From an uncultured Acidimicrobiaceae bacterium (GTDB taxonomy: Bacteria > Actinomycetota > Acidimicrobiia > Acidimicrobiales > RAAP-2), in contig CAVZDZ010000005.1 of NCBI GenBank assembly GCA_963774245.1, positions 343,480-407,479 of the forward strand: a DNA stretch of 64,000 bases, read 5' to 3'. Both the position numbers and the translations under genes were made by a program. A model generated the notes under the pieces. That model was not told the origin of the DNA, did no database searches, and saw nothing but the letters and a program-made list of their open reading frames with translations. Below are positions 1 to 55,878 of this stretch, one piece after another. Numbering within the stretch: position 1 is the stretch's first letter; the number at the start of each line of letters is the position of its first letter.

Positions 1-734
1 AGCGCGGGACGGGTGGCGAGCGCCCAGGCACCGACGGCGACGGCTGCGAACACGGAGAACAACACGAGCAACAGCAGCACCTCGACGCTGATGAAGAACT
101 CGACCGTCACCAGCAGGCCCAGCCCCGCTCCGACCCAGAGCCGATTGCGCCGTCGACGAACGAACAGCTCGTCGAGGCACCCGATGATGAGGGGGATCGG
201 GGCCAGCAGCCCGAAATTGGGATGGGCGAAGGCCAGACTCACCAGCACGAAGGGCGAGAATCCGAAGAACAGGCCTCCGACGAAGGCGGCCGGCGACCAC
301 GGGACCCATCGCCGCAGCAGCCAGAACATCGACAGCGCCGACAGGGGCGGAGATACCAGGTCGATCAGGTTCAGGGACGCGGTGGGACCGAATAGCCAGG
401 TGACCGGGGCAAAGACGATCCCGAGGCCCAGCGAGTTGGGCGCCATGTTGATGCCGACCGGAGCGAGGAGCTTCGAGGAGTAGAACGGGTTGAGACCGTG
501 GCTCAGGGCGTAGGCCGGCCACTTGATGACCCAGAGGGTCAGCGCGGCGTCTCCGCACCCACAGGTGGTGACGGTGCTCAAGTGGGGCAGCACGTGCCAC
601 CAGAGCACGATCGACGCCAGCAGGTAGATACCGATGGCGACCAGGTACGGGCGTCGAGCCGTAGGGGAGCCGACCGGGGCCGCTCCGGCTCTGACCTCGG
701 CCACCGGTGGTTGGGCCACCGTCGCCTGGCTCAT
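1..734 (-). CDS. Polytopic membrane protein of an uncharacterised 'CGCGD-loop' family, paralogue A (N-terminal ~244 aa only; gene continues past the window start)
   Basis: Absent from the ORF track because it runs off the window. Hand translation of the minus strand from ATG 734..732 gives MSQATVAQPP..RRPYLVAIGIYLLASIVLWWHVLPHLSTVTTCGCGDAALTLWVIKWPAYALSHGLNPFYS..LLRRWVPWSPAAFVGGLFFGFSPF..LDELFVRRRR. This is colinear with the N-termini of the genes at 4470, 6560, 9935 and 13456. Confidence 0.75.
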   Translation of the reverse strand, partial: MSQATVAQPPVAEVRAGAAPVGSPTARRPYLVAIGIYLLASIVLWWHVLPHLSTVTTCGCGDAALTLWVIKWPAYALSHGLNPFYSSKLLAPVGINMAPNSLGLGIVFAPVTWLFGPTASLNLIDLVSPPLSALSMFWLLRRWVPWSPAAFVGGLFFGFSPFVLVSLAFAHPNFGLLAPIPLIIGCLDELFVRRRRNRLWVGAGLGLLVTVEFFISVEVLLLLVLFSVFAAVAVGAWALATRPA

Positions 735-1123
735 CGGATCGGCCCGGTGACGACTGCCAGCCGGGCCTGGCTCACCTTTGGACGATGCAGTGGGGGTGTC
801 ATCGGCGGGAGGTCCATGGCGGGAGCGTTCGGCAAGGCAAACAGGGCTGCCTGGGTGGCGGCGGCAAAGCTTACCCAGCGCCCTGCCGGGTGGAGTGATC
901 GGTGGAGCGGTGTATCCCCTGGCAGTCGCCCTCTGGAGCACAGCACGTGTCTGGCCACGGTTGATGCCAGGGGACCGGCGACGGCGGGAGATCGTCGTGA
1001 TGGCAGTCAGCCGGGACGATACCTGGGCACTGACGGTGGTGTCTCGAACTCGCAGCGAGGCGGACCATCGAGACCGGCCAAGTAGCACGGCCCGGACGGC
1101 GATATGGCACGCTCTTTGGCAGA

Positions 1124-2469
1124 ATGGCCAGGATGCCCGATCAGCGCGAGGACTCGATTCCCACCGAGTTGTCGGCTGCGGCGGTGCAGTCGGCGGCTGA
1201 GGGTGACACCGAACCACCGAAGCGGCCCCCCTTTCGGCTCGGGGATCGCCCAGCGCTGACCGGCATACGGGCCGTCGGCGTCAGCCTGGTGTTGATCTTC
1301 CACTCCAACTTCCAGACCCTCCCGGGGTCGTGGGTGGCGCTGGGCGTGTTCTTCGTGCTCAGCGGATTCCTCATCACCACGATGCTGGCCACGGAGCACC
1401 AGAAGAACGGCCGCATCAGCCTGAGCAAGTTCTACTACCGGCGGGGCGTGCGGCTGCTGCCCCCCTTGTTCCTGACCGTCGCCCTGATTGCCGTGTACGC
1501 CTCGTTCGTCTCGGTGTGGAATGCAGCGGAGCGAATCTGGGAAGAAGCGGCCGCCGCCGTGTTCTACTACGCCGACTACCGGGCGGCCTTCGGCCATGAG
1601 CCGTTCGGCGCCATTCCTCGCCCAGATGCTGGTCACTGGCGGTCGAGGAGCAGTTCTACCTCATCTGGGCGGCGCTGTTGCTGGTCACGCTCAAGTTCGG
1701 CAACCGGAAGCTGGCCTATGCCATGGCCATCACCGGCATCGTGGCGTGCACGGTCAACCGGTACCGCATCGTGTTCGGTGCGGCCCACTGGAACAGCTAT
1801 GTGGCCGGGCGGGTGTACTACGCGTTCGACACCCGGGCTGACGCCCTCTTCCTCGGCTGCCTCCTCGGGTTGATCGCCACCGGGGGGCGCCTCGACGGGT
1901 GGAAACCCTGGGCCAAGCGGACCCTGACCGTGCTGGCGCTCGTCTCGACCGGCGTCATGATCTGGATCATCTGGTCGGTGAGCCTGGCGCCCCGCTCGCT
2001 TCCTCTGTTGTGGCTCCCGGTCAGTGAGGTGGCCTCGGCCCTGATCATCGTGTACTTCGTCGTCCAGCCCCAGGGATGGGGCACCCGGTTGATGGGCATC
2101 CCCGTCCTCGTGTTCTTTGGCAACATGTCCTACACGATCTATCTCATCCACTGGCCGATCTACGTGGCCATCAGCCCCTACACGGTCAAATGGTCGTACT
2201 GGATCATGGATCCGGTGCGATTGGCCATCATCTTCCCGTTGGCCATTGCCAGCTGGTACCTGATGGAGCGGCCCCTGATGAACTTTCGACGCAAGAAGCT
2301 CGATCCGACCAAGCCCATCGCCGAGGCGGTCTCTCCGGTCTCGCCGGCCGAGGAGCTCGGGACGGCGCCCGTATCCCAGACATCGCCCATCCCCTCCCAC
2401 CGCGGTGCCGATTTCCTCGACCCTCGACTAGGGCGAGTGGGACCCGGCCCACCGATTCCCGACTGGTAG
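1124..2469 (+). CDS. Membrane O-acyltransferase, acyltransferase-3 (OafA/YrhL) family; frame interrupted twice near 1613 and 1629 as assembled
   Basis: ORFs 1124..1873 and 1678..2469 are two halves of one protein. Blocks: LTGIRAVGVSLVLIFHS..GVFFVLSGFLITTML; then (ignoring two extra bases) FLAQMWSLAVEEQFYLIWAALL; then FFGNMSYTIYLIHWPIY..SWYLMERPLMNF. These are the conserved acyl_transf_3 blocks. Confidence 0.8.
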
Positions 2470-2638
2470 CGTCAACCATCGTGAGGAAAGTCGGTCCGCC
2501 TACCCGGTCGCCTGCGCATCGGCGACCAGGAGGCGGAGGGTTGGCATCGAGAGCGACCTCGTGCCGGTGACCGCCTCGGCCAGCATGGCCGAATGAGCGA
2601 CTTGGCCCAGGTGGTCGACCCGGACCCGGTCTCGTCCA

Positions 2639-4473
2639 GTGTCCCGGTCGAAGGCGGTGAGGCCGGTCCCGACGGAACCCGGCCGGCGATCGAGCCGCGG
2701 CCTGATCAGCTGGTGGCCGGTGCTGGTCCCGGTGCTCATCGTGGTCATCGGGGCCTGGCTCTACCGCTGGGTGGACGAGGACGCGTTCATCGACTTTCGG
2801 ATGATCGACAATCTGCTGGCCGGACACGGCCTCGTGTACAACCTCGGTGAACGGGTCGAGGTGGACTCGGACCCCTTGTGGATCTTCACGCTGGCCGGGC
2901 TGCACGAGGTGTTTCCTTTCATCGCCCTCGAGTGGTTGTCCGTGCTGCTGGGTCTGGTCTGCACCGCGGGCGGCTTCCTCGCCGGGGGACGTGCCTCGCA
3001 GTCGCTGGGGCGTTCGCGGCACGAGGTCGTCGGTCTTCCCCCTCGGCCTGCTGATGGCGTCGGTGGTCGCCGGCGTCTGGGAGTTCGCCACTTCGGGCCT
3101 CGAGATGTCGATGGTCTTCCTCTGGCTCGGGACCTCCTTCCTCCTGCTGGTGCGCGTCGAACAGCGACGGAGGCGGGCGTGGCCGACGGCGTTGGTCATG
3201 GGTCTCGGGGTCCTCATCCGGCCCGAGCTCATCCTCATGTCGGCGGTGTTCGTCATCGCCCTCCTCGTCGTGGTGTCAGCCCCGGGCTGGTCGCCGGACT
3301 CCGGACGGATCCGTCGCTGCCTCCCTCCGATCGCCGCCGCCATCGCCCTACCGCTCGCCTACCAGGTCTTCCGGATGTGCTACTTCGCGCTGCTGGTCCC
3401 CAACACCGGACTGGCCAAGGCGGGGGTCTCGGCCTGGTGGACCCAGGGCCTCACCTACCTCTGGAACTTCGTGGCCCCGTACACGCTGTGGCTGCCGCTA
3501 CTGCTGGCGGTCCCGTTCGTGGCCCAACGGGTGGCGGCCTGGTGGAGGACCGGCGACCGCCTGGGGGTGGTCGTGCTGGTCACGCCGCTGGTGGCCGGCG
3601 CCGCCGATGTTCTCTATGTGGTGTACATCGGTGGCGACTACATGCACGCCCGATTGCTGCTCCCCGGCTTCTTCGCCATCTGCCTCCCGATCTTCTTCTC
3701 CGCCCGGCAGCTCCGATCGGCCATGGTCGTGCCGTTGGTCGGGATCGCGGTGTGGGGGGTGGTCTGTGTCGGCTGGCTCCGCTTTGTGCCTCCCAAGGTC
3801 ACCAGCCTCAATCCCCAGACGGTGTTCATCTCCAACGAGCGGAACAGCTGGATCAGCGCCACCCACAATGCTCATCCGATCACTGCGGCCGACTACCGGA
3901 CCGCCCTCTCCGGTGAAGCCGGCCGGATCTTTCGTCAGTTGGCCCAGCGGGTCCCCCGGGGCGAGAAAGAACTGCTGATCATTACCAACCCGTACGCCCC
4001 CATCGACACGTCGTCGGTGTCACCGGCGGAATCGTCCCTACCGTTCAAACTGGCCGTGAACGTGCCCGCCATCGGCGTCATCGGCTACATCGCCGGTCCA
4101 CAGGTCTACGTCTTCGATGAGTTCTCCCTGGCCAATCCCGTGGGCAGCCATACCATCGTCACCAAGCACGCCCGCCCGGGGCACGAGAAGTACATCGGGC
4201 CCGGCGTGGATGGTGGCGCGTTTCGGGACGCCCGGCTGGAAGCCGGGCCCGGGAGACCCCTCGGTGGCATCGGTCAACGCCGCCCGATCCGCCATGGACT
4301 GTGAACCGTTGCGGTCCTACCTCCGGGCCATCACCGCCCCCCTGACCGTGTCGCGGGCACTCCACAATTTCGCCCAGTCGTTCCGCTACACGACCATGTC
4401 GTTCAGCGCCATTCCGAGTGTGGCGGCAACACAGCTGTGCGGGACCTCGTCCAGCGCGGCGACCCGACCGTGA
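2639..4473 (+). CDS. GT-C fold membrane glycosyltransferase resembling AftB-like arabinofuranosyltransferases; two +1 frame changes (~3010, ~4198) as assembled
   Basis: N-terminus WVDEDAFIDFRMIDNLLAGHGLVYNLGERVEVDSDPLW (ORF 2639..3916). Body LIRPELILMS..YQVFRMCYFALLVPNTGLAKAG (ORF 2847..4304). Tail PAWMVARFG..CEPLRSYLRAI (ORF 4117..4473). The N-terminal block and the 'LLPNT..AK' block match what I remember from proteins annotated as arabinofuranosyltransferase (memory, not a search). Stop TGA 4471..4473 overlaps GTG 4470 of the next gene. Confidence 0.6.
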
Positions 4474-6416
4474 CCGAGGTCCGTACCGCCGTCGACGGTG
4501 CGGTCGAAGATCCGCTCCGACCGGCCGGGGAGCGCCGGTGGCCATCGTCATGGCGTACGGCCGGCCCGGCCTTCGTTGTCTATCTCGTGGTCTCCATCGT
4601 CCTGTGGTGGGGCGTCTGGTCGACCCATCCGTCCACCACCACGACCTGTGGCTGTGGCGACGCCGCCCGGTTCATCTGGTTCTTCAAGTGGCCTGCCTAC
4701 GCCCTCACCCACGGGCACAGCCCCTTCTACTCGCCGCTGCTGTTCCATCCGACCGGCATCAACCTGCTCAACGACACCAGCGTCCTGGCCCTCGGGGTGG
4801 TCCTCGCCCCGGTGACCTGGGTGGCGGGACCGGTGGCGGCGATGAACGTCGCCCTCACCCTGGCGCCGGTGCTCTCCGCCCTGGCCATGTTCGCGCTTCT
4901 CCGTCGGTGGGTGGTGTGGGCACCGGCCGCATTCATCGGCGGCCTGGCCTACGGGTTCTCTCCGTTCCTCATCACCGAGTTGGCGCTCAACCAGTTGAAC
5001 ATCGCCTTTCTGGTCATCCCGCCGCTGGTGGTGATGGCGCTCGACGAATTGCTGGTCCGGCAGCGCAGATCGCCCTACCCCACGGGAGTGGCGCTCGCCG
5101 TACTGTTGGTGGTGCAGTTCTTCGTGAGCACCGAAGTGCTGGTGATCACCTGCCTGTTCGCCGTGGTGGCGGTGGTGCTGATGGTCGGGTTCGTCGGCCT
5201 GCGCCAGCCCGGTGAGATCGGTCCCCGGACCGGTCACGCCCTGCGCGGCTCGGCTACCGCGGTCGGGGTCACGGCAGTGGTGCTGGCCTATCCGCTGTGG
5301 TTCCTGCTCCGCGGTCCAGCCCATCTGACCGGGCCGATCTGGTCGAACGGCACGCTCGTCCAGTTCGGCAACACCTTCACCAGCTTCTGGCGGACCGGGG
5401 GACTCCAGCAGATCCAGAGCGTTTCACTCCGATTCGGCGGCTATCAGGGCCCCACGCTTCCCGTCCTCGGCTACCTCGGACCCGGACTGATCGTGGTGGC
5501 CGTGGTGGGCGTGCTGGTGTGGCGTCACGATCGCCGGCTGCTGCTGTTCGGGGCTCTCGGGGTCGTGGCCGCCGTGCTGTCGCTCGGACCGGGGCACGGC
5601 TACTGGGTGCCGTGGCAACTCGTCGAGAAGCTCCCGTGGGTGGGCGACATCGTCGAGGTCCGCCTGACCGTGGTCCTCATCCTCTGCTCGAGCATCCTGG
5701 TGGCGGTGACCATCGACCGGTTCCGGATCTGGCTCCAGCGTCGGCCGACCAAGTTCCCGCTGGGCCCGGGGTGGGTGGCTGCCGCATTGGCCGTGGTCAT
5801 GCTGATCCCGAGCGCCATCGCCGTCTGGCCGAACGTCCCGCTCGCCACCCGGGCGGTCGAGCTCCCGACCTGGTACGCCGAGGTCGGGGCGACGCTGCCC
5901 CCGGGTCAGGTCCTGCTCTCGTACCCGGTGCCTTTTTCCGGTCTGCAGAGCTCCCAGGCCTGGCAGGCGCTGAACGGTATGCGGTACGCCCAGGCGGGCG
6001 GGGGAGGCCCCGAAGGCCAGGCCGGACGGGCCGGGGAGGCGCGGCCCGGCTTCGACGTGCTGTTCGCCGCATCGTTCGCCGTCGGCCCGCCGCCCGGCCC
6101 GACCCCTTCGAACCTGGCCGCCATTCGCCGCGCCCTCACCATCTGGGGGGTCACCACCATCGTGGTCCCGGATCAGGCGACGTTGCCGATCTACGAGCAG
6201 GGCCGCAGCACGGCCTATGCGGTGGGCCTGCTCACTGCGACCATGGGACGGCGGCCTGCCTATAGTCATTCGGCCTGGGTCTGGTCGGACGCCGCCCTCC
6301 GGGGAGCGCCCGTCGTTATGTCCCCGGAGGCCTTCAGGCACTGCCTCGCCGGCCCGCCGGCGTCCGGATCGGCTCCCCAGGCGATTCCCACCTGCATATT
6401 GGCCTCGGCGCGCTGA
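4470..6416 (+). CDS. 'CGCGD-loop' polytopic membrane protein, paralogue B (GT-C-like architecture; function unknown)
   Basis: Intact ORF (track 4437..6416). I prefer GTG 4470, which forms a GTGA overlap with the upstream stop. Motifs: LVVSIVLWWGVWSTHPSTTTTCGCGDAARFIWFFKWPAYALTHGHSPFYS, LLRRWVVWAPAAFIGGLAYGFSPF, LDELLVRQRRSP. At least 10 hydrophobic segments. C-terminal non-membrane domain with WGVTTIVVPDQATLPIYEQ. Confidence 0.8.
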   Translation: MTEVRTAVDGAVEDPLRPAGERRWPSSWRTAGPAFVVYLVVSIVLWWGVWSTHPSTTTTCGCGDAARFIWFFKWPAYALTHGHSPFYSPLLFHPTGINLLNDTSVLALGVVLAPVTWVAGPVAAMNVALTLAPVLSALAMFALLRRWVVWAPAAFIGGLAYGFSPFLITELALNQLNIAFLVIPPLVVMALDELLVRQRRSPYPTGVALAVLLVVQFFVSTEVLVITCLFAVVAVVLMVGFVGLRQPGEIGPRTGHALRGSATAVGVTAVVLAYPLWFLLRGPAHLTGPIWSNGTLVQFGNTFTSFWRTGGLQQIQSVSLRFGGYQGPTLPVLGYLGPGLIVVAVVGVLVWRHDRRLLLFGALGVVAAVLSLGPGHGYWVPWQLVEKLPWVGDIVEVRLTVVLILCSSILVAVTIDRFRIWLQRRPTKFPLGPGWVAAALAVVMLIPSAIAVWPNVPLATRAVELPTWYAEVGATLPPGQVLLSYPVPFSGLQSSQAWQALNGMRYAQAGGGGPEGQAGRAGEARPGFDVLFAASFAVGPPPGPTPSNLAAIRRALTIWGVTTIVVPDQATLPIYEQGRSTAYAVGLLTATMGRRPAYSHSAWVWSDAALRGAPVVMSPEAFRHCLAGPPASGSAPQAIPTCILASAR

Positions 6417-6559
6417 GCGATCTTCCCTGGCTGTGGATGGACGGCGGGCCCGTTGCCGCCTAACATGCCCACCGGGGTTTTGCGGGCTTCACCGGGGGGC
6501 AGGTCGATTGACGTGATGGCGGCAGAGCGGTCGGATTTCGAGACGCCGGCACTTGCGGT

Positions 6560-8665
6560 GTGGCAGATCTGGTCGGACGTTCGCGCCAGTTTCCGGATCT
6601 CATCGGCCAAACGGATGATGACATCGTGACGACGACCGATCGCCTTCCACCCGTACCCCCGTCACCCGATGCCCTGACCGAGGGCAACCAACAGCCGCGT
6701 CCTGATCCCACGGATTCCGCCGGCCCCCCCGGACGCCATCGGATCCGGCCCGTGCTCATCAGTGGCGGTCTGTACCTGGTGTTGTCGGTCCTCGTGTGGT
6801 GGAACGTGTGGTCCAGTCATCCGACCTCGACCACCACCTGTGGATGCGGTGACAGCTCGCTGTTCACCTGGTTCCTCGAGTGGCCGGCCTACGCCATGAC
6901 CCATGGGCTCAATCCCCTCTTCTCCACGGCGATGATCTATCCGAGGGGCGTCAATCTGTTGGCCAATACGGCCGAGGTCGGATTCGGCGTCGTCCTGGCT
7001 CCGATCACCTGGATCTTCGGGCCGGTGGCCACGCTCAATGTCGCGCTCACGCTCAGTCCCGCGCTCTCTGCCCTGGCCATGTTCGTCCTGCTTCGCCGAT
7101 GGGTGACCTGGCAGCCGGCCGCGTTCTTCGGTGGTCTGCTCTACGGTTTCTCTCCGTTCTTCCTCTCTTACCTCACTGACGCCCACCTCATGATCGGGGC
7201 CGCGTTCGTTCCTCCATTGATCGTCGCCTGCCTCGATGAGCTGATGGTGAGGCAACGTCGCCGCCCGATCGCCACCGGTGTGGTGCTCGGTCTCCTGGTG
7301 GTCGTCCAGTTCTTCATTGGGACCGAAGTGTTGGCCATCGTGATCGTCGCGGCGGTCATTGCCACCGCCCTGCTGGTGATCTATGCCGGGCTGCGCCATT
7401 TCGATGTGCTCCGCACCCATGTCCGCCCGGCAGTCGTCGGCCTGTGTTCCGCCGGCGTGACGGCCGGGGTCCTGCTGGCCTATCCAATCTGGTTCGCCTT
7501 CGCCGGCCCGGCCCATCTGTCCGGAAACCTCTGGGATAACCCGTTCCTGAGCTACGGCGGGCCTAATGTGTCGGCCTATTTTGTCCCGGAGGCCCCCTCG
7601 GGTGCTGCGCTCGCCACCAGCCTGCGATGGGGCGGGTATCAGGGCCTGACGCTGTCCCAGCAGTACTTCGGCTTCGGCATGGCCGCAGTACTCGTCCTCG
7701 GATGCATCGTGTGGCGTAAAGATCGCCGCCTCTGGCTGTTCGGCGCGGTCGGCCTGAGCGGCGTGCTCCTCGCCTTCGGGCTGGGAATCAAGGGTTGGTC
7801 GGCCTGGCGACTGTTCGTCAGGTTCCCGACGATGGAGAACATCATCCCCGGCCGGTTCCTGCTGGTCGTCTATCTGGCCGTCGCCACCATGCTGGCCATC
7901 ATCCTCGACCATGCCTATGGCGGCGTCCGTGACTGGTGGCAGGCAACCTCGAGTGCCGGTCCGCACGACGTACCGGGCATCGCCGGCGGTGGTGCCCGGA
8001 GGGTGGCGGCAGCGGTGGGAGTACTGCTCGCGGTCATCGCCCTGGGTCCGATCGCCGCCTACCTCTCGCGGGGCCTGCCCATCACCACCACTCCCGTGGT
8101 CCTTCCTCCCTGGTTCCGGACCGTCGCTCCCACCCTCACCGGCGATCCTGTGATCCTGGCCTTTCCTGCTCCCTTCAGACTGGCCGAGACCACGTTGACC
8201 TGGCAGGCGGTCAGCGGGATGCACTACTCCATCGTGGGTGGCGCAGGGCCGAGCTCCATACCGCAGCGGGCCGGCAAGGAGAAGGTCGCTCAACACCTCA
8301 TTGGCGACTACTCCATCTCCTCGAGCCGCTCGAGCCCGGACTTGAAGCAGGTCGCCGAGGTCAGGTCTGCCCTGGACGAGTGGGGGGTGACCACGATCGT
8401 CATTCCCGATCCGACCCATCTTCCGCTGTATGAACAGGTGTCCCACGTGAGGTCGCTCGTGGTCCTGCTGACCGCGGCCACGGGCCAACGGCCAGAGTGG
8501 CAGGCGGATGCCTGGGTGTGGCACGACGTCGCCCACGCCGGACCACCGGTGCTGTCATCGGCCTCCGCACTGAAGCAGTGCACCATCGGGCCGGCCATCG
8601 GCAGCCCAGCCGACATCGATCAAGCCGGTGCGTGCGTGCTGGCGACCCGATCGGCAGGGCGGTGA
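6560..8665 (+). CDS. 'CGCGD-loop' polytopic membrane protein, paralogue C
   Basis: Intact 701-aa ORF. Motifs: LVLSVLVWWNVWSSHPTSTTTCGCGDSSLFTWFLEWPAYAMTHGLNPLFS, GVNLLANT, LLRRWVTWQPAAFFGGLLYGFSPF, LDELMVRQRRRP. C-terminal WGVTTIVIPDPTHLPLYEQ. Start codon not certain. Confidence 0.8.
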   Translation: MADLVGRSRQFPDLIGQTDDDIVTTTDRLPPVPPSPDALTEGNQQPRPDPTDSAGPPGRHRIRPVLISGGLYLVLSVLVWWNVWSSHPTSTTTCGCGDSSLFTWFLEWPAYAMTHGLNPLFSTAMIYPRGVNLLANTAEVGFGVVLAPITWIFGPVATLNVALTLSPALSALAMFVLLRRWVTWQPAAFFGGLLYGFSPFFLSYLTDAHLMIGAAFVPPLIVACLDELMVRQRRRPIATGVVLGLLVVVQFFIGTEVLAIVIVAAVIATALLVIYAGLRHFDVLRTHVRPAVVGLCSAGVTAGVLLAYPIWFAFAGPAHLSGNLWDNPFLSYGGPNVSAYFVPEAPSGAALATSLRWGGYQGLTLSQQYFGFGMAAVLVLGCIVWRKDRRLWLFGAVGLSGVLLAFGLGIKGWSAWRLFVRFPTMENIIPGRFLLVVYLAVATMLAIILDHAYGGVRDWWQATSSAGPHDVPGIAGGGARRVAAAVGVLLAVIALGPIAAYLSRGLPITTTPVVLPPWFRTVAPTLTGDPVILAFPAPFRLAETTLTWQAVSGMHYSIVGGAGPSSIPQRAGKEKVAQHLIGDYSISSSRSSPDLKQVAEVRSALDEWGVTTIVIPDPTHLPLYEQVSHVRSLVVLLTAATGQRPEWQADAWVWHDVAHAGPPVLSSASALKQCTIGPAIGSPADIDQAGACVLATRSAGR

Positions 8666-8729
8666 ACGCTCGACATGCAAGGACTGGCGACTCATGCACA
8701 TTCGTTGATCGACACGAGCAAAATGGTGG

Positions 8730-9461
8730 TTGCAGATGAGAAATGACGATATCGAGAGATTGATGCATGCGCCTGAGCGCTTGGAAATCTGGACCGAGTT
8801 CTTGCAAACGCATCACATACATACCGTTGCGGAACTAGGGGTTGCCCGAGGCATGTTCGCCCAGGGATTGCTCAGAAGCTGTCCAGAAATCGAAAGGTAC
8901 TACCTCATTGACCCATGGACGCATCTGGAGGATTGGAACATGCCGAGCAACAAGGACAACCTCGCCTTCGAAGAGTTCTTCGAAGAGGCCATGGATCGCA
9001 CCGAGCGGTGGAAGTCGGCGCGGGTTGTCCTCCGCGGACGGACTACTGAGGTCATCGACTCGATCCCGGACGACTCGTTGGACTTTGCCTATGTCGACGG
9101 GGACCATACCCTTCGAGGAGTGACCATCGACCTCCTCCGAGTGTGGCCCAAAGTCAAGGCCGGCGGATTTGTCGCTGGTGATGACTTCTGTCCTTCGATA
9201 CAGCACCGTGGGACTTTCGAACCGACCCTGGTCTTTCCACTTGCCGTGTACTTCGCCGAGGCGATGGATGTTCCCATCACTGCTCTAGAACATGATCAAT
9301 TCTTGATCGAGAAGTCGGGGAGCGGCTTCAGTTTTGCGGACCAGACGGGTCTCTACGCAGATCTGACGGTCGGAGGCACCCTTCGTGCTGGGTCTTCCAA
9401 CAAGGGGCTTCGACTGAATGAGCGCCTTCGAAAGCGCCCCAGAGCCGAGGCACACAGTTAG
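8730..9461 (+). CDS. Class I SAM-dependent methyltransferase (Methyltransf_24 / TylF-like O-methyltransferase type)
   Basis: Intact 243-aa ORF. Motifs: TVAELGVARGMFAQ (SAM-binding loop region), LDFAYVDGDHTLRGVTIDL, KAGGFVAGDDF. Visibly lower G+C than its neighbours. ATG 8736 is an alternative start. Confidence 0.7.
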   Translation: MQMRNDDIERLMHAPERLEIWTEFLQTHHIHTVAELGVARGMFAQGLLRSCPEIERYYLIDPWTHLEDWNMPSNKDNLAFEEFFEEAMDRTERWKSARVVLRGRTTEVIDSIPDDSLDFAYVDGDHTLRGVTIDLLRVWPKVKAGGFVAGDDFCPSIQHRGTFEPTLVFPLAVYFAEAMDVPITALEHDQFLIEKSGSGFSFADQTGLYADLTVGGTLRAGSSNKGLRLNERLRKRPRAEAHS

Positions 9462-9525
9462 TCGAACGGCAGCTGTGCGGGCCTCGTCCTTCGACATCGA
9501 GGGCTGCGTTCGGTGACTCGGCGGA

Positions 9526-9883
9526 TCAGCGGGTCACTTGCCGGAGCTCACCGGCTTGGGCTCCTTCGGGAGCCCAAGCACCCGTTCGCCGACGATGCTG
9601 CGCTGAATCTCCACCGTCCCTCCCCAGATGGTCTCCGACCGCGAGAAAGAGGGATGCATGCAGGTCGCTGACCGGATAGTCATCCCGTCCCCGACGCAGG
9701 CGGACGTCCACCGAGTCGTCGTAGGTGCCGGTCAGGATCTGCCCCTCCATGCCCAGGATGTCGATGGCGAGCTCCATCACGTCCTGGTGGTACTCCGACC
9801 AGAACATCTTGGTGCAGGCCCCGAGGGCGGTCATGTGGTGGGTGCCGTTGAGGACATCGGTGGGAGATCGATAGCCGTTGATC
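9526..9883 (-). pseudogene. Relic 3' fragment of an acyl-CoA dehydrogenase gene (copy of the 3' end of the gene at 12011..13249)
   Basis: ORF 9526..9918 reads ..[74 protein letters not shown], then goes out of frame. Region 9551..9883 aligns base-for-base with 12031..12365, with roughly 20 mismatches and a 2-nt gap at ~9650. There is no 5' two-thirds of the gene. Confidence 0.85.
9551..9883. repeat. Copy 1 of a ~335-bp direct repeat (acyl-CoA dehydrogenase 3' end)
   Basis: Aligned by hand to 12031..12365. Offset is 2480 nt up to ~9650, then 2482 nt. Similarity stops abruptly at 9883/12365. Confidence 0.85.
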
Positions 9884-9934
9884 ACCGGGGCCGCCCCCGG
9901 GACCGGGGAGATCGCCATACCGTACGATCGTCGG

Positions 9935-11995
9935 ATGGGCGCTGATCGGGGAGGGGCGACGACGCGGCCCCCTTTTGGTTCCGAGCCCGGTGAAGTCCAC
10001 GCTCACCGTCTGCGCCCGGTGCTCGTCGCCGCGGCGCTCTATCTGGTGGCCTCCATCGTGGTGTGGTGGGAGGTGTGGTCGGGTCATCCGACCTCCAGTA
10101 CCGGTTGCGGGTGCGGCGACAGCTCCCTGTTCACCTGGTTCCTGGCCTGGCCCGCTTACGCCATCACCCATGGGGCGAACCCCTTCTTTTCGACCCGTCT
10201 GTTCCATCCGGAGGGCGTCAACCTCCTGGCCAACACCAGCCAGCTGGCCATCGGCGTCACGCTGGTCCCGGTCACCTGGATCTTCGGGCCCATCGCATCG
10301 CTCAACGTGGCCCTCACGCTGAGCCCGGCGTTGTCGGCGCTGGCCATGTTCGTGCTCCTCCGCCGCTGGGTGCACTGGCAGCCGGCCGCGTTCGTCGGGG
10401 GTCTGCTCTACGGCTTCTCCCCGCTGGCCCTGGCCAACATCGCCGATGCCCATCTGATGATCGGGATGGTGCCGGTGCCCCCGCTGGTCGTCCTCTGCCT
10501 TGACGAGCTGTTGATCCGCCAACGACGTCGACCGGTGCCAGTCGGTATCGGGCTCGGTCTGCTGATCACGTTGCAGTTCTTCCTCAGCACCGAATTCCTG
10601 TTGATGACCGTCGTCGCCGGCGTCATCGGGGTGGTGCTCATCGTCGGCTACGCCCTTCTCCGTCACCCCGACGCCGTCCGTCGCCACTTCAGGTTCGCCG
10701 TCGTCGGCCTCGGGGCCGGAGTGGTCACCGCGGGAGTGCTGCTCGCCTACCCGGCGTGGTTCGCGGTGGCCGGACCGGCCCACTTCACCGGGACGGTGTG
10801 GGCCGGCTTCGACCTCCGGACGGGGGGGACGACGCTGGGCCATTTCTTCGTGCCGCAGTCGACGGCCGCAGCCCGCAGCTCCCTCGGGCCCTTCGCCTTC
10901 TCGCTCAGTGCCCGGACCGGTGGCTACCGCGGGGCCATCCTCTCCCCTCAGTACTTCGGCTTCGGTGTGTTGGTGGTCGTGGCCGCCGGATTGGTCGCCT
11001 GGTGGCGGGACCTTCGCCTGTGGCTGTTCGGTGGCGTGGCGGTGGCTTCGGTCGTCCTGTCCCTGGGCGCACCGAGGGGAAGCCTTTCGGTGTGGGGGAT
11101 CCTGGCCGGGCTGCCCCAGTTCGAAAACGTCGTGCCCAGCAGGTTCGTGCTCATCACCTACCTGGCCGTGGCCGTGCTGCTGGGGCTGATCGTGGACCAC
11201 ACCCACGAGTGGGTGTGTGCCCGACTGGCCGTCGGCCAGGACGGTGCCGCCCAGGGTGGCTCGGGGTCCGGGGCCTGGTACGGGGCGCTGGCCGGAATGG
11301 CAGTGGCGGCCGTCGCGCTGGTGCCGGTCGGTCTCTACGTGGGACAGAACCTGCCCATCGCCACCCAGGCGGTGGTGGCGCCGTCATGGTTCCGGAAGGT
11401 CGCTCCCCGTCTGCCCCCTCATCAGGTGCTCCTCGTGTTCCCGGCCCCGTTCTCCACCATGCAGAGCGGGATGAGCTGGCAGGCCCAGAATCGGATGCGC
11501 TACTCGATGGTCGGAGGCGGAGGGCCCGGCGCCCTCTTCGTGCAGTCCCCGTCCCAACGGCCCGGAGCGGCGGTCATTTCCGCCACCTCCTTCTCCTTCG
11601 GCCAGGGACTCACCATCACCCCCGAGAAGGTGGCCGCCGTCCGCCGGGCGCTGGACAGCTGGGGGGTCACCATGGTGGTCATCCCCGACCAACCCGAGCT
11701 CCCCGTCTACGACCAGATCCCGTCGGTCCCGTTCGCCGCCGCGCTCATCGCCGCGGCCACCGGGCAACAACCGACCTTGCAGGACCACGCTTGGGTATGG
11801 ACGGGGGTCGATCACGCCGGCCCACCGGCGCCCATCACCACGAGCCGGTTCTCCCTCTGCACCGTCGGCCTGGCCACTCACGGAACGACTGCCGTGGACC
11901 GGGCCACCAGATGCGTGCTGGCACCGACCGCGGCAACCGTCCCGACCGCATCCGATCCAGCCATGCCGACGGCCACGAGCGCAGCCGGCCCATGA
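9935..11995 (+). CDS. 'CGCGD-loop' polytopic membrane protein, paralogue D
   Basis: Intact ORF (track 9878..11995). I prefer ATG 9935 because 9878-9883 still lies in the ACAD relic. Motifs: LVASIVVWWEVWSGHPTSSTGCGCGDSSLFTWFLAWPAYAITHGANPFFS, GVNLLANT, LLRRWVHWQPAAFVGGLLYGFSP, LDELLIRQRRRP. C-terminal WGVTMVVIPDQPELPVYDQ. Confidence 0.8.
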   Translation: MGADRGGATTRPPFGSEPGEVHAHRLRPVLVAAALYLVASIVVWWEVWSGHPTSSTGCGCGDSSLFTWFLAWPAYAITHGANPFFSTRLFHPEGVNLLANTSQLAIGVTLVPVTWIFGPIASLNVALTLSPALSALAMFVLLRRWVHWQPAAFVGGLLYGFSPLALANIADAHLMIGMVPVPPLVVLCLDELLIRQRRRPVPVGIGLGLLITLQFFLSTEFLLMTVVAGVIGVVLIVGYALLRHPDAVRRHFRFAVVGLGAGVVTAGVLLAYPAWFAVAGPAHFTGTVWAGFDLRTGGTTLGHFFVPQSTAAARSSLGPFAFSLSARTGGYRGAILSPQYFGFGVLVVVAAGLVAWWRDLRLWLFGGVAVASVVLSLGAPRGSLSVWGILAGLPQFENVVPSRFVLITYLAVAVLLGLIVDHTHEWVCARLAVGQDGAAQGGSGSGAWYGALAGMAVAAVALVPVGLYVGQNLPIATQAVVAPSWFRKVAPRLPPHQVLLVFPAPFSTMQSGMSWQAQNRMRYSMVGGGGPGALFVQSPSQRPGAAVISATSFSFGQGLTITPEKVAAVRRALDSWGVTMVVIPDQPELPVYDQIPSVPFAAALIAAATGQQPTLQDHAWVWTGVDHAGPPAPITTSRFSLCTVGLATHGTTAVDRATRCVLAPTAATVPTASDPAMPTATSAAGP

Positions 11996-12010
11996 GGCCG
12001 ACCGCCGCGG

Positions 12011-13249
12011 TCATCCGGTCGAGGCGGAGGCCGGCTTCGGCTCCTTCGGCAGGCCGAGCACCCGCTCGCCGACGATATTGCGCTGGATCTCCGCCGTCCC
12101 TCCCCAGATGGTCTCCGACCGCGAGAAGAAGAAGGATGCCTGCAGGTCGCTGACCGGATAGTCATCCCGTCCCCGACGCAGGCGGACGTCCACCGAGTCG
12201 TCGTAGGCGCCGGTCAGGATCTGCCCCTCCATGCCCAGGATGTCGATGGCGAGCTCCATCACGTCCTGGTGGTACTCCGACCAGAACATCTTGTTGCAGG
12301 CCCCGAGGGCGGCCATGTGGTGGGTGCCGTTGAGGGCGTCGGTGAGCGATCGATAGCCGTTGATCTCCATGATCTTGACCTTGGTCCACGCGGTGGCCAG
12401 GTGTTGGCGGATCAGTGGGTCGGATGCTTTGCCGTTCCCCTCCGCTTCGGCGATGATCTGGTCGAGCTCACGCTGGAAGCGTCGATGGCCGGTGGTGGCC
12501 GACGAGCCCCGTTCGAAGCCCAGGGTGGTCATCGCCACTTTCCATCCGTTGTTCTCACCCCCGACGACGTTGGCCCGCGGGCAACGGGCGTTGGTGAAGA
12601 ACACTTCGTTGAAATCGGCACTTCCGTCGACCTGCTCGATGGGACGGACCTCGATGCCGTCCTGCTTCATGGGCACGAGCAGATAGGAGATGCCGGCGTG
12701 CTTGTCGACGTCCGGATCGGTGCGGGCGAGCAGGAAGATGTAGTCGGCGAACTGGGCCTGGGTGGTCCACACCTTCTGGCCGTTGATCACCCATTCGTCG
12801 CCGTCCAGCTCGGCGCGGGTCTTGAGCGAAGCGAGGTCGCTCCCGGCGTCGGGCTCCGAGAACCCCTGGCACCACGAGATGGAGCCGTTGAGGATGCCGG
12901 GGATGAATTGCTGCTTCTGCTCCTCGCTGGCCCACTGCAGAATGGTGGGACCGACCAGGGTGTCCCCGAAGAAATCGGCCCTCAGGGGAGCCTCGGCCCG
13001 GGCGAACTCCTCGTTGAGGACCACCGACTCCATCAGGGACAGGCCCTTGCCCCCGTACTCCTTGGGCCACGACGCGCAGATCCATCCACCGGCGAAGAGC
13101 TTCTTGTTCCACTCCCGATTGAACGTCTTCTTCTCTTCCGGGGTCATGGAGAACCCCGGCGTGCCCCAGCCGTCGGGGAGGTTGTCGGTGAGCCACTGTC
13201 GGATCTCGGCCCGAAACGGCTCGGTCTCTACGGGGTAGTTCAGATCCAT
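12011..13249 (-). CDS. Acyl-CoA dehydrogenase family protein
   Basis: Intact ORF 12011..13336. The likely start is the internal ATG 13249 (MDLNYPVETEPFRAEIRQWL). Motifs: [79 protein letters not shown]. Confidence 0.85.
   Translation of the reverse strand: MDLNYPVETEPFRAEIRQWLTDNLPDGWGTPGFSMTPEEKKTFNREWNKKLFAGGWICASWPKEYGGKGLSLMESVVLNEEFARAEAPLRADFFGDTLVGPTILQWASEEQKQQFIPGILNGSISWCQGFSEPDAGSDLASLKTRAELDGDEWVINGQKVWTTQAQFADYIFLLARTDPDVDKHAGISYLLVPMKQDGIEVRPIEQVDGSADFNEVFFTNARCPRANVVGGENNGWKVAMTTLGFERGSSATTGHRRFQRELDQIIAEAEGNGKASDPLIRQHLATAWTKVKIMEINGYRSLTDALNGTHHMAALGACNKMFWSEYHQDVMELAIDILGMEGQILTGAYDDSVDVRLRRGRDDYPVSDLQASFFFSRSETIWGGTAEIQRNIVGERVLGLPKEPKPASASTG
12031..12365. repeat. Copy 2 of the ~335-bp direct repeat (inside the intact acyl-CoA dehydrogenase gene)
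   Basis: See 9551..9883. Confidence 0.85.
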
Positions 13250-13455
13250 GGGTCGACAATATCCCTGCTGGGCGCATGGCGTTATCGGCACGTCGGTCGG
13301 CCAGGTCGCGGCCCACGCCTTCCTGAGCGAGACCACGCTGCCGAGGGTCTGTCTTCAACGAGAAGCCATTGGGGGTGCGACAGACCCATAGCTGATATAA
13401 GTTCTGGCATCATCCGAGCTTTGGCGGTTATCGGACGCTCTGGCGGCCTCCCTAC

Positions 13456-15276
13456 ATGAGAGCGGCCGTGACGCAACACGCCGATACTCCAGCAGTCCGA
13501 GGTACTGCCCGCTCCTATGGTCGATGGGGTCCTGGCGGGCTCAGTTGCGCTCTTTACGCTGCTCTGGCGATGCTCTTCTTCAGCCATTTCAGCGAATTGG
13601 GGCCGGGCCACATCTCAGGGGATGGGTCGATTGATGCAATCGTGCAGATCTGGTGGCTCGAATGGATGGCATTTGCCTTGCCCCATGGTCTTAACGTCTT
13701 CTCGACTCAGTGGCTCAACTATCCGGCCGGTGCGAACTTCGGAGTCGTTGGAGGGTCGTCACTCTCCCTCGGTTTATTGCTGCTGCCGATCACAAAGATC
13801 TTTGGTCCGGCTGTCGCCTGGAACATTGCAGTCCGCCTCGCTCTCGTGGCGTCAGCCACCTCGATGTGTCTCGTGTTGCGCAGATGGACCACGTGGTGGC
13901 CGGCAGCCTTTCTAGGTGGTCTGCTCTACGGCTTTTCTGCCTATACCTTCTACAACGGTGGCAACGGCGCCTATCTATTTCTGATATTCGTACCGTTGCC
14001 TCCGCTGATCTTTCTCATCCTCCACGAGATCTTGGTGCGCCAACAGTGGCGTCCCCAGGCAGCTGGAACTCTCCTGGCCGCAGTCTGCGCAGTCCAGTTC
14101 TTCATCTCCACCGAGGTGCTCGCCAGCACTGTGGTGATGGGGGTCATCGCCACCGCTATCTACCTCCTGATCAAGCGGCGTGAGTTTTCTGAGCGGAGGA
14201 CCTATGCGGCAACGGCGTTCGTCTACGGGCTGGGCGGAGCGTGTCTCCTGCTCGCATATCCGGCATGGATGACGTTTGCTGGTCCCCAGCATCTCAACGG
14301 ACCGCCGTTCTCACCGGCGCAGCTGGCCTTGCTCCCTAGCGATCTGTACGGCGCAGTCACCTCAAACGGGGAGTGGCTGAGCAAGTCGACCATGACCAGT
14401 CCGGTTTACTTCTACCCCGTCTCGCAGGCCGAATCGGCCCAGATGTACCTCGGCCTTCCCCTCCTCGTGGTGCTCGCTGGTTTTGTCGTCTTCTTTCGCA
14501 AACAGCGGGTGATCCTCTTTGCCGGAGGCATGGCAGTCATCGCCTATGTACTCTCGTTGGGCTCACCTCTGTGGGTAAACGGTCGCCGGACGTCGATCGT
14601 CCTTCCTTTCGCTGCTTTCCAACACATCCCGGTTCTCGATGGGTTTATCGCCGCGCGGTTTGCCCTGTTCACCATCCTGTTCGGGGCGGCAATATTTGCG
14701 ATAGGTGTCAATGAGCTGTGGGTGCGCCTGGCGTCCCGATGGGACAAATATCTGGCCCTGTTCTGTGTATGCGTCCTAGCCGTTGTCGTGGTCACCCCGC
14801 TGATACCGGCACATGTATTTCCGTCGACTCCTGTGAATACCCCTTCGGTCTTTACCTCCGATCTCATTCCACCTGGAAGTGTGGTGCTGGCTTACCCGTA
14901 CCCGGATCTGAGTCAACAGATCATGCTCGACCAGGCCATCGGTGGGATGCGGTTCAAATTGATCGGGGGTTACGGCAGCTTCCCGTCACCAACCGGACGG
15001 TTCGGTACCACTCGACCTGCTGCCCTCAGACCTCGTTCGGTGCAGGCACTGTTTGATGCGGCATTCTCAGGCCGCCCTCCACCGGCTGGGGATCTGATTC
15101 CTGCCATTCGATCATTCCTGCTCCGATATGGCGTTCAAGCAGTGATCGTTGTCTCAGCGGGCCACAACCCTGGTTTGGTTATCGATCGGCTCACTGCGGC
15201 GATCGGACCCCCTATTCATGTCGGGGCGACCACCGTCTGGCTGCATGTGCAGCATCATCTCGAATCGTCCAGATGA
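13456..15276 (+). CDS. Divergent member of the 'CGCGD-loop' membrane protein family, paralogue E (Cys pair absent)
   Basis: Intact 606-aa ORF. HISGDGSIDAIVQIWWLEWMAFALPHGLNVFST aligns with ..TTTCGCGDSSLFTWFLEWPAYAMTHGLNPLFST. Also VLRRWTTWWPAAFLGGLLYGFSAY, LHEILVRQQWRP, QFFISTEVL. Lower G+C and A/T-ending codons (tta, ttt, ata) that are rare in B-D. Confidence 0.75.
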   Translation: MRAAVTQHADTPAVRGTARSYGRWGPGGLSCALYAALAMLFFSHFSELGPGHISGDGSIDAIVQIWWLEWMAFALPHGLNVFSTQWLNYPAGANFGVVGGSSLSLGLLLLPITKIFGPAVAWNIAVRLALVASATSMCLVLRRWTTWWPAAFLGGLLYGFSAYTFYNGGNGAYLFLIFVPLPPLIFLILHEILVRQQWRPQAAGTLLAAVCAVQFFISTEVLASTVVMGVIATAIYLLIKRREFSERRTYAATAFVYGLGGACLLLAYPAWMTFAGPQHLNGPPFSPAQLALLPSDLYGAVTSNGEWLSKSTMTSPVYFYPVSQAESAQMYLGLPLLVVLAGFVVFFRKQRVILFAGGMAVIAYVLSLGSPLWVNGRRTSIVLPFAAFQHIPVLDGFIAARFALFTILFGAAIFAIGVNELWVRLASRWDKYLALFCVCVLAVVVVTPLIPAHVFPSTPVNTPSVFTSDLIPPGSVVLAYPYPDLSQQIMLDQAIGGMRFKLIGGYGSFPSPTGRFGTTRPAALRPRSVQALFDAAFSGRPPPAGDLIPAIRSFLLRYGVQAVIVVSAGHNPGLVIDRLTAAIGPPIHVGATTVWLHVQHHLESSR

Positions 15277-24184: not shown

Positions 24185-24269
24185 TCGGCGGTAGCTCCGC
24201 CGCGGGCCGCCGAAGGCTGAGCCCGGTGGCGGAGGATGGTTGCTCGCCGTCCGTGGACTCAGCGGCGGG

Positions 24270-29647: not shown

Positions 29648-29665
29648 CCGACGGTCGCCCGGCCA

Positions 29666-55874: not shown

Positions 55875-55878
55875 GGAC

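What the first reader, a model, noticed from the sequence alone, without database searches (positions are those of the whole stretch)
1..15276. Array of five paralogues of an unplaced 'CGCGD-loop' polytopic membrane protein family
Five genes encode colinear proteins of 600-705 aa: A (<1..734, minus strand), B (4470..6416), C (6560..8665), D (9935..11995) and E (13456..15276).

Shared layout:
- One TM helix ending in WW.VW.
- An extracytoplasmic loop: HP(T/S)(S/T)T.CGCGD..LF.WF..WPAYA..HG.NPF.S...P.G(V/I)NLL.(N/D)T.
- The blocks LLRRWV.W.PAAF.GGL.YGFSP and PPL.V..LDEL.VRQRR.P, then QFF..TE.L.
- At least 10 hydrophobic segments.
- A ~190-aa C-terminal non-membrane domain (WGVT..V.PD...LP.Y.Q).

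I cannot assign this to any named Pfam or CAZy family from memory.

The architecture is that of GT-C lipid-linked-sugar glycosyltransferases: an invariant acidic residue in the first external loop, many TMs and a C-terminal periplasmic domain. The neighbours are envelope-glycan enzymes. The local expansion recalls the Emb/Aft arrays of Corynebacteriales. The Cys-Gly-Cys-Gly-Asp signature is unusual and could be a disulfide or metal site next to the putative catalytic Asp.

By eye, C and D are about two-thirds identical over the first 250 aa; B and A are less similar, and E is far more distant.
Basis: partly seen in the sequence, partly recalled or inferred. Interest (0 to 1): 0.8.

Follow-up and report, generated by a model that had tools for sequence, protein, structure and literature searches.

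The report
Unnamed membrane glycosyltransferase family, five paralogues
Five neighbouring genes encode an unnamed family of large membrane enzymes with the fold of lipid-linked-sugar (GT-C) glycosyltransferases, part of a gene cluster shared by soil Acidimicrobiales that probably builds an unknown cell-wall sugar polymer outside the cell membrane.

Summary
A (partial), B, C, D and E are colinear paralogues (BLASTP E 1e-53 to 0; C/D 50% overall, 72% over the membrane core). E lacks the Cys pair but keeps the Asp.

The GT-C reading holds:
- No Pfam or NCBIfam model captures the family. The only weak hits are to GT-C clan families.
- The 14 best Foldseek matches of an AlphaFold2 model of C (pTM 0.79) are all solved GT-C enzymes (AglB, AftD, AftA, PglB, STT3, DPY19).
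- The Asp begins the first extracytoplasmic helix, where GT-CA enzymes carry their catalytic Asp. It is kept in 325 of 326 homologues.
- CxCxD marks one clade, not the whole family.

The family is large (1,980 50%-identity clusters at E<=1e-30). Every sampled locus came from a MAG, and 71 of 76 are labelled Acidimicrobiales or Acidimicrobiaceae.

The array is not a local burst. It belongs to a conserved locus: acyltransferase-3, an AftB-like GT-C, a B-type gene, then C/D-type genes.

Most likely these are extracytoplasmic glycosyltransferases using lipid-phosphate-linked sugars to build or decorate an acylated envelope glycan. Donor, acceptor and activity are untested. This is a new family of a known kind, of moderate interest.

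The parts
1..734 (-). Paralogue A, N-terminal 244 aa only (the gene runs off the window). CGCGD is at 549-563 and EFFISVE at 81-101.
1160..2343 (+). Acyl_transf_3 / SucT-like membrane O-acyltransferase, read in two frames (break near 1606-1624). Member of the gene class most often co-located with the family (46 of 77 loci).
2660..4443 (+). AftB-like GT-C (distant relative of terminal beta-(1->2)-arabinofuranosyltransferase, NF041481), read in three frames. It abuts the start of B.
4437..6416 (+). Paralogue B (659 aa from GTG 4437; alternative start 4470). CGCGD at 4647-4661, QFFVSTE at 5115-5135. B-type orthologues directly follow the AftB-like gene in at least 19 related loci.
6560..8665 (+). 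Paralogue C (701 aa from GTG 6560; NCBI-called start 6752 gives 637 aa). CGCGD at 6839-6853 (Asp codon 6851-6853), QFFIGTE at 7307-7327. This is the modelled protein.
8069..8662 (+). C-terminal extracytoplasmic alpha/beta domain of C (198 aa), with a conserved Cys pair. No confident structural relative in the PDB.
8730..9461 (+). Methyltransf_24 class SAM-dependent methyltransferase between C and D (GC3 0.66).
9543..9882 (-). Remnant of the 3' end of the acyl-CoA dehydrogenase gene. The 338-bp repeat 9551-9886 is 93.8% identical to 12031-12368. It lies just upstream of D and marks a recent rearrangement.
9878..11995 (+). Paralogue D (705 aa from TTG 9878; ATG at 9935). CGCGD at 10106-10120, QFFLSTE at 10574-10594.
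13456..15276 (+). Paralogue E (606 aa), a member of a distinct subfamily without the Cys pair. DGSID at 13621-13635 (Asp kept), QFFISTE at 14095-14115. GC3 is 0.66.

Best explanation
A-E belong to a large, unnamed family of GT-C (GT-CA class) integral-membrane glycosyltransferases found so far only in MAGs, nearly all labelled Acidimicrobiales.

Architecture:
- Each protein has 11 TM helices with the N-terminus inside and the C-terminus outside.
- The first external loop carries two juxtamembrane helices.
- A ~200-aa alpha/beta domain lies outside the membrane.

Inferred mechanism:
- A sugar carried on a polyprenyl phosphate (or diphosphate) is made in the cytoplasm and flipped across the membrane.
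- It enters the enzyme from the outer leaflet.
- The invariant Asp at the tip of juxtamembrane helix 1 (D34 of the 637-aa form of C) acts as catalytic base or nucleophile.
- The invariant outward-facing E192 (QFFxxTE turn) and R368 help hold the acceptor and the lipid phosphate.
- The C-terminal domain positions a growing envelope glycan.

The paralogues (B-type, C/D-type, E-type) are old and syntenic. They most likely add different residues or linkages to the same polymer. They would work with the adjacent AftB-like GT-C, while the many Acyl_transf_3 enzymes and methyltransferases decorate the product. This is an Emb/Aft-like division of labour.

Shown here: paralogy, fold, topology, conservation and synteny.
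Inferred: catalysis, the lipid-linked donor, a glycan acceptor and the residue roles.
For: Fold:
- The AF2 model of C has pLDDT 76.6 and pTM 0.79.
- The Foldseek top 14 hits are all GT-C enzymes, E 1.9e-5 to 6.4e-4, probability 1.00. The next hit drops to E 0.13, probability 0.14.
- Every weak Pfam hit from a known membrane-protein family is to a GT-C clan family: STT3 N-terminal at 25.0 bits for B against a 24.5 cut-off, YfhO, DUF2079 and PTPS_related.

Catalytic Asp:
- It is kept in 325 of 326 homologues.
- It is the first residue of helix 34-50 of the model, the hallmark position in GT-CA enzymes (PMC12041299).

Other family-wide invariants: E192, Q186, R368, N68, R115/R116.

Topology:
- K+R density is 10 of 48 residues in predicted inside loops and 5 of 159 in outside loops.
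- Big_7 or LysM domains are fused to the extreme C-terminus in E-like members.

Context:
- Acyl_transf_3 genes occur in 46 of 77 loci and an AftB-like GT-C in 24.
- A B-type gene lies directly downstream of the AftB-like gene in at least 19 loci.
- Stop and start overlap in L015 and L009.

All five window copies keep the invariant residues.
Against: - No sequence-level link to any characterised GT-C was found. PDB profile searches were empty. hhalign against the neighbouring AftB-like family gave probability <=4%.
- Foldseek TM-scores are moderate (0.35-0.44).
- The loop carrying CxCxD is modelled with pLDDT <50.
- No polyprenyl-phosphate-sugar synthase or flippase was found next to the window array. 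A small GT2 occurs in only 5 related loci.
- The window's AftB-like and acyltransferase genes are frameshifted.
Confidence: 0.7

Rival explanations
1. They are protein glycosyltransferases (oligosaccharyltransferase- or PMT-like) that modify secreted or membrane proteins, rather than building a polysaccharide.
For: - The best single Pfam hit is the STT3 N-terminal domain.
- AglB, PglB and STT3 are among the best structural matches.
Against: - The OST hallmark WWDxG is absent from all 394 family sequences examined.
- STT3 scores sit at the cut-off for only a minority of members: 7 of 24 and 2 of 67.
- No MIR or PMT domain was found.
- The C-terminal domain has no confident PDB match, to OST periplasmic domains or to anything else.
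- The conserved partners are an AftB-like polysaccharide enzyme and polysaccharide-type O-acyltransferases.
- AftD and AftA match as well as the OSTs do.
Confidence: 0.1
2. They transfer or polymerise preassembled oligosaccharide units from undecaprenyl-diphosphate carriers, as a ligase or polymerase would, rather than adding single sugars from polyprenyl monophosphates.
For: - The closest folds include enzymes that use diphosphate-linked oligosaccharides (PglB, STT3).
- Multi-copy arrays could reflect different repeat units.
Against: - No Wzx, Wzy, Wzz or WaaL-type partners were found among the conserved neighbours.
- The conserved partner AftB uses a monophosphate donor, decaprenyl-phosphoryl-arabinose (PMC12041299).
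- The data do not discriminate strongly between the two donor types.
Confidence: 0.1
3. Some or all copies are non-catalytic membrane proteins (scaffolds, pseudoenzymes or transporters) that merely retain a GT-C-like shape.
For: - No activity is known for any member.
- Adjacent genes in the window are frameshifted, so the locus might be decaying.
Against: - B-E are intact ORFs with coding-type GC3.
- All five keep every family-wide invariant residue, including the Asp.
- The Asp is kept in 325 of 326 homologues.
- Transporter folds score probability <=0.14.
Confidence: 0.05

Closest known systems
Mycobacterial arabinofuranosyltransferases AftB (GT89), AftA (GT85), AftD and EmbA/B/C (GT53)
   Same: - GT-CA fold.
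- AftB has the same overall layout: 11 TM helices plus a C-terminal periplasmic alpha/beta domain, with a catalytic Asp at the tip of JM helix 1 (PMC12041299).
- AftD and AftA are among the top structural matches.
- Several paralogous GT-Cs are clustered in one envelope-glycan locus.
- An AftB-like gene lies directly upstream of the B-type gene.
   Different: - No detectable sequence homology: NF041481 does not hit B-E, and hhalign probability is <=4%.
- The catalytic motif is CxCxD or xxSxD rather than DD/DDx.
- The C-terminal domain has no confident PDB match.
- The hosts are Acidimicrobiales, not Mycobacteriales.
- The donor sugar is unknown.
Oligosaccharyltransferase catalytic subunits PglB / AglB / STT3 (GT66, Pfam PF02516)
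   Same: - Best structural matches.
- The only Pfam model that reaches its cut-off, and only for B, by 0.5 bit.
- Acidic residue in EL1 and a C-terminal extracytoplasmic domain.
   Different: - No WWDxG motif in 394 sequences.
- 11 rather than 13 TM helices.
- A different C-terminal domain.
- A polysaccharide-type genomic context.
Multi-component extracytoplasmic glycosylation systems (YfhO/GtrC-type GT-C with a GT2 polyprenyl-P-sugar synthase and a flippase; the GT136 pentofuranose system)
   Same: - A GT-C enzyme acts outside the membrane on a finished or growing polymer.
- Weak YfhO, DUF2079 and PTPS_related hits.
- New GT-C families are still being founded in this way (PMC8035078; PMC11127046).
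   Different: - Scores are below every family cut-off.
- No adjacent synthase-flippase pair in the window.
- Several paralogues per locus rather than a single decorating enzyme.

Membership tests
GT-C superfamily, GT-CA class | Polytopic membrane domain with a conserved N-terminal seven-helix module and two juxtamembrane helices between TM1 and TM2 | tested here: met
   The AF2 model has helices 2-21 (TM1), 34-50 and 69-89 (juxtamembrane), then 91-114 onward, 11 TM in all. The top 14 Foldseek hits are all GT-C enzymes at probability 1.00.
GT-C superfamily, GT-CA class | Conserved, catalytically essential Asp at the tip of juxtamembrane helix 1 (PMC12041299) | tested here: met
   The Asp is present in 325 of 326 aligned homologues and is the first residue of helix 34-50 in the model. 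Its catalytic role itself was not tested.
GT-C superfamily, GT-CA class | Active-site loop and C-terminal domain on the extracytoplasmic side | tested here: met
   Positive-inside rule: K+R is 10 of 48 residues in inside loops and 5 of 159 in outside loops. LysM and Big_7 are fused after the C-terminal domain in subfamily members.
GT-C superfamily, GT-CA class | Transfers sugar from a lipid-phosphate-linked donor | not testable with these tools
   Needs biochemistry.
STT3/PglB/AglB oligosaccharyltransferases (PF02516, GT66) | Match to the Pfam STT3 model above the gathering score | tested here: inconclusive
   B scores 25.0 bits against a 24.5 cut-off. C, D, E and A give no hit. 7 of 24 and 2 of 67 homologues hit, at E between about 1e-5 and the 0.1 / 0.01 limits of those scans.
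STT3/PglB/AglB oligosaccharyltransferases (PF02516, GT66) | WWDxG motif in the C-terminal domain | tested here: not met
   0 of 394 sequences contain WWD[YWF]G.
AftB, terminal beta-(1->2)-arabinofuranosyltransferase (NF041481, GT89) | Sequence match to the family model | tested here: not met
   No NCBIfam hit for A-E, whereas the neighbouring gene hits at E 5.9e-42. hhalign of the family against the AftB-like alignment gives probability 0.4-4%.
YfhO (PF09586) / DUF2079 (PF09852) / PTPS_related (PF10131) | Match above the Pfam gathering score | tested here: not met
   The window proteins score 10.6-16.9 bits against cut-offs of 26.4-28.5. Only sporadic weak hits occur among homologues.
   No Pfam or NCBIfam transporter hit. 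Foldseek matches to MFS and other transporters have E >= 0.13, probability <= 0.14 and TM-score about 0.1.
CAZy GT families | dbCAN / CAZy assignment | not tested

The most novel reading that the evidence does not exclude
Soil Acidimicrobiales build an arabinan-like, heavily O-acylated pentofuranose-containing wall polysaccharide outside the Mycobacteriales. They would use a conserved multi-GT-C locus whose main workhorses are this previously unrecognised GT-C family. In this reading the Cys-x-Cys next to the catalytic Asp forms a redox- or metal-sensitive element that tunes activity in the oxidising extracytoplasmic space.
Probability: 0.15. Interest if true: 0.75.

Novelty: new member of a known kind. 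Interest (0 to 1): 0.5.

Why it matters
Acidimicrobiales are abundant and mostly uncultured soil and water Actinomycetota, and their envelope chemistry is essentially unknown.

The conserved locus holds three to seven paralogous GT-C enzymes of an unnamed family, an AftB-like enzyme and many membrane O-acyltransferases. That predicts a complex glycan assembled outside the membrane, comparable in logic to mycobacterial arabinan.

The family has about 2,000 50%-identity clusters at E<=1e-30, yet no Pfam or NCBIfam model. Defining it would improve annotation of thousands of 'hypothetical proteins', add a candidate CAZy GT family, and give concrete targets (D34, E192, R368, the CxC pair) for biochemistry.

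It does not challenge current concepts. It extends a known enzyme class into a poorly known lineage.

Tried and rejected
1. Inter-domain disulfide idea: that the CxC pairs with the conserved C-terminal Cys pair. Rejected. 29 homologues have CxC without the C-terminal pair and 2 have the reverse, so the two pairs vary independently.
2. Sequence link to solved structures. phmmer and two profile searches of the PDB gave nothing meaningful.
3. Profile-profile comparison (hhalign) of the family against the neighbouring AftB-like family and against two co-conserved unknown membrane proteins (cl3, cl4). All probabilities were <=4%.
4. Fold of the isolated C-terminal domain. The model is acceptable (pLDDT 78.5, pTM 0.83), but the best PDB match has E 0.17 and probability 0.11. 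No assignment was made.
5. Looking up the contig that encodes C by exact protein: not on record.
6. Names or organisms for distant representatives: none.
7. Literature searches for the family, for GT-C in Acidimicrobiia and for arabinogalactan in Acidimicrobiales. Nothing specific turned up. An AftD paper aligns an Ilumatobacter (Acidimicrobiales) homologue.
8. Search for a donor-synthesis gene (polyprenyl-P-sugar synthase, flippase) beside the window array. None was found. The nearest glycosyltransferase is a cytoplasmic GT4 at 20951-22339.
9. A recent local tandem burst as the origin of the array. Rejected. DNA identity among B, C and D is only 65-70%, and orthologues lie in the same order in other genomes.

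Full report
**1. Observation**

The six-frame ORF list and translations confirm five colinear genes at the stated positions:
- A: 1..734, minus strand, truncated by the window edge.
- B: 4437 or 4470..6416.
- C: 6560..8665. The NCBI record for the identical protein starts at the equivalent of 6752 and gives 637 aa.
- D: 9878 or 9935..11995.
- E: 13456..15276.

All have coding-type GC3: 0.80-0.88 for A-D and 0.66 for E.

Pairwise BLASTP puts the paralogy beyond chance:
- C-D 50% identity, E = 0.
- B-C and B-D 44%, E about 1e-150.
- E against B, C or D 31-32%, E about 1e-54.
- A against B, C or D 51-52%.
- Over the first 180 membrane-core residues, C-D is 72% identical.

E is the exception. It has GDGSID where the others have CGCGD, so it keeps the Asp but lacks both Cys. 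It also lacks the C-terminal Cys pair.

**2. What the proteins are**

Pfam-A (2025) and NCBIfam (2026) have no model for this family. The only hits are weak, and every hit from a known membrane-protein family is to a GT-C clan family:
- STT3 N-terminal: 25.0 bits for B against a 24.5-bit cut-off.
- YfhO, DUF2079 and PTPS_related: below their cut-offs.

The same pattern appears among 24 close and 67 diverse homologues.

An AlphaFold2 model of C from a 24-sequence alignment has mean pLDDT 76.6 and pTM 0.79. Searched against the PDB with Foldseek, its 14 best matches are all solved GT-C enzymes (E 1.9e-5 to 6.4e-4, probability 1.00, query TM-score 0.35-0.44):
- archaeal AglB
- mycobacterial AftD and AftA
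- yeast and human STT3
- PglB
- the C-mannosyltransferase DPY19

The next match, an MFS transporter, drops to E 0.13, probability 0.14 and TM-score 0.1.

The model has 11 TM helices. Two juxtamembrane helices (34-50 and 69-89) lie between TM1 and TM2, as in GT-CA enzymes.

The conserved Asp (D34 in the 637-aa numbering of C) is the first residue of the first juxtamembrane helix. The AftB structure paper states that all GT-CA enzymes carry a catalytically essential Asp at the tip of JM helix 1. It also reports that AftB has 11 TM helices plus a C-terminal periplasmic alpha/beta domain (PMC12041299). Both features match this family.

**3. Topology**

With the model's helices, K+R make up 10 of 48 residues in the predicted cytoplasmic loops and 5 of 159 in the external loops. 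This gives N-in, C-out.

Independent support comes from the E-like subfamily. Some members carry a Big_7 or LysM domain at the extreme C-terminus, after the C-terminal domain. LysM is an extracytoplasmic, peptidoglycan-binding module (established knowledge).

**4. Conservation**

- Among 326 homologues aligned across both ends, the Asp is present in 325.
- C-x-C-x-D holds for all C-like proteins and most 50%-identity representatives. The x positions vary (CACGD, CPCGD, CACSD and others).
- The Cys pair is absent from the whole E-like subfamily, which mostly has x-G-S-x-D. The pair is therefore a clade marker.
- Family-wide invariants or near-invariants are D34, W40, W44, N68, T86, N96, R115/R116, Q186, E192, R368, Q485 and W590.
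- By the topology above, D34, Q186/E192 (the QFFxxTE turn between TM5 and TM6) and R368 face outward. They are candidates for base or nucleophile, acceptor or metal binding, and phosphate binding. These roles are inferred.
- The OST hallmark WWDxG is absent from all 394 sequences.

**5. C-terminal domain**

Modelled alone, the domain gives pLDDT 78.5 and pTM 0.83. It is an alpha/beta domain. It has no significant PDB match: the best has E 0.17 and probability 0.11.

Its conserved Cys pair varies independently of the N-terminal CxC. I therefore dropped the idea of an inter-domain disulfide. Whether CxC forms a local disulfide or a metal site stays open, because that loop is modelled with pLDDT <50.

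**6. Size and distribution**

- A profile search of 1.84 billion cluster representatives found 8,457 proteins at E<=1e-3, 4,385 at E<=1e-10 and 1,980 at E<=1e-30. The weakest of these may be other GT-C families.
- The word-indexed searches returned only 'hypothetical protein' labels, plus a few evidently automatic names.
- The genome scan confirmed 477 stretches. The 76 loci kept are all MAGs. 71 are labelled Acidimicrobiales or Acidimicrobiaceae, four Actinomycetes, and one 3.6-kb contig Mycobacteriaceae.
- I could not survey taxa beyond the best 80 hits.

**7. Genomic context**

I called ORFs in the 76 loci and the window and clustered them.
- The family occurs in more than one copy in 44 of 77 sequences, with up to six or seven tandem genes in L035. 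Fragmented genes inflate some counts.
- The most frequent neighbours are Acyl_transf_3 / SucT-like membrane acyltransferases (126 genes in 46 sequences).
- Next is an AftB-like GT-C, present in 24 sequences. A full-length example matches NF041481 over positions 5-621 of 633 at E 1.8e-71, far below the equivalog cut-off. It is a distant relative, not AftB itself.
- Three unknown proteins follow: cl3 and cl4 (polytopic) and cl5 (small, one TM).
- Gene order is conserved: Acyl3(-), AftB-like(+), B-type(+), C/D-type(+), [cl5, cl3], C-type(+), Acyl3(+) x2, cl4(-)..., acyl-CoA dehydrogenase(-).
- A B-type gene directly follows the AftB-like gene in at least 19 loci. Stop and start overlap in L015 and L009.
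- B-type orthologues are 51-70% identical to the window's B, whereas B is only 44% identical to C or D. The paralogues therefore predate the divergence of these genomes.
- DNA identity among B, C and D is 65-70%.

The window shows the same arrangement: A(-), Acyl3, AftB-like, B, C, methyltransferase, D, ACAD(-), E.

Other loci add a small GT2, a cellulose-synthase-like GT2-PilZ protein, an NAD-dependent sugar epimerase and YfhO-like GT-Cs.

**8. Mechanism proposed**

The best-supported reading is a set of extracytoplasmic GT-CA glycosyltransferases. They would take a lipid-phosphate-linked sugar from the outer leaflet and add it to a growing envelope glycan. The paralogues would supply different linkage or acceptor specificities. 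The AftB-like enzyme, the acyltransferases and the methyltransferases would act on the same product.

The link to AftB-like and SucT-like genes hints at a pentofuranose- or arabinan-like, acylated polymer. AftD-like proteins are already known from Acidimicrobiales (Ilumatobacter). No donor-pathway gene was seen, however, so I give this specific version low probability.

AftB is a retaining GT-C, so the stereochemical outcome cannot be assumed.

**9. Rivals**

- Protein glycosylation (OST/PMT-like): disfavoured by the missing WWDxG motif, the marginal STT3 scores and the polysaccharide-type partners.
- En-bloc transfer from diphosphate carriers: cannot be excluded.
- A non-catalytic role: unlikely, given near-absolute conservation of the Asp in every paralogue.

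**10. Novelty and score**

This is a new, large, family-level member of a well-known enzyme class. It has a distinctive CxCxD clade motif and a C-terminal domain with no confident PDB match. The architecture and presumed mechanism are standard GT-C.

New GT-C families are still being defined experimentally, for example GT136 in 2024.

I rate it as a new member of a known kind, with interest 0.5. It is a solid, testable lead into the unknown envelope of Acidimicrobiales, but it would not surprise a glycobiologist.

Noticed in passing
window 1160-2343 (+) and 2660-4443 (+): The Acyl_transf_3 gene is readable only across two frames, and the AftB-like gene only across three. Breaks lie near 1606-1624, 3003-3040 and 4180-4259. 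B-E are intact. These are either pseudogenes or assembly errors. Another public assembly holds a frameshifted copy of C (P0004).
   Followed up: partly
window 9551-9886 and 12031-12368: A 338-bp direct repeat at 93.8% identity. A frameshifted remnant of the 3' end of the acyl-CoA dehydrogenase gene (12011-13336, minus strand) lies immediately upstream of D. This indicates a recent rearrangement or insertion, much younger than the B/C/D duplications (65-70% DNA identity).
   Followed up: partly
window 8730-9461 and 13456-15276: The Methyltransf_24 gene and paralogue E have GC3 of 0.66, against 0.80-0.88 for B, C and D. The 12-16 kb region has G+C of 0.61-0.63. This may reflect later acquisition. 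Outside four near-identical metagenome proteins, E's nearest relatives are only 57% identical.
   Followed up: no
window 24000-64000: Many long ORFs match only parts of Pfam domains or join unrelated domains: MetRS positions 1-142 of 391 at 38391-39278, Carboxyl_trans plus Biotin_carb_N in 59034-60899, and AtuA plus Acyl-CoA_dh_N in 55203-57653. This suggests many frameshifts in this high-GC part of the assembly, or poor ORF choice on my part.
   Followed up: no
related loci, e.g. L015:2145-3728, L062:13883-15523 (-), L024:7885-8382: Three co-conserved genes of unknown function accompany the family in 16-18 loci but are absent from the window. Two are polytopic membrane proteins (cl3 ~520 aa with an invariant GFDARA.W loop; cl4 ~545 aa). 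One is a ~165-aa single-TM protein (cl5). None has a Pfam or NCBIfam hit. They could be further unrecognised GT-C-like enzymes.
   Followed up: partly
window 18574-29709: A second group of envelope-type genes lies downstream: a He_PIG Ig-domain protein (18574-20580, minus strand), a GT4 glycosyltransferase (20951-22339), a second Methyltransf_24 gene (25788-26453, minus strand), and further Acyl_transf_3 fragments (27406-28290; 28504-29709 by clustering).
   Followed up: no
homologues P0277, P0294, P0324, P0381 (E-like subfamily): Some E-like family members carry a C-terminal Big_7 Ig-like domain or a LysM domain after the C-terminal domain. This places that end outside the membrane and, in the LysM case, next to peptidoglycan.
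   Followed up: yes
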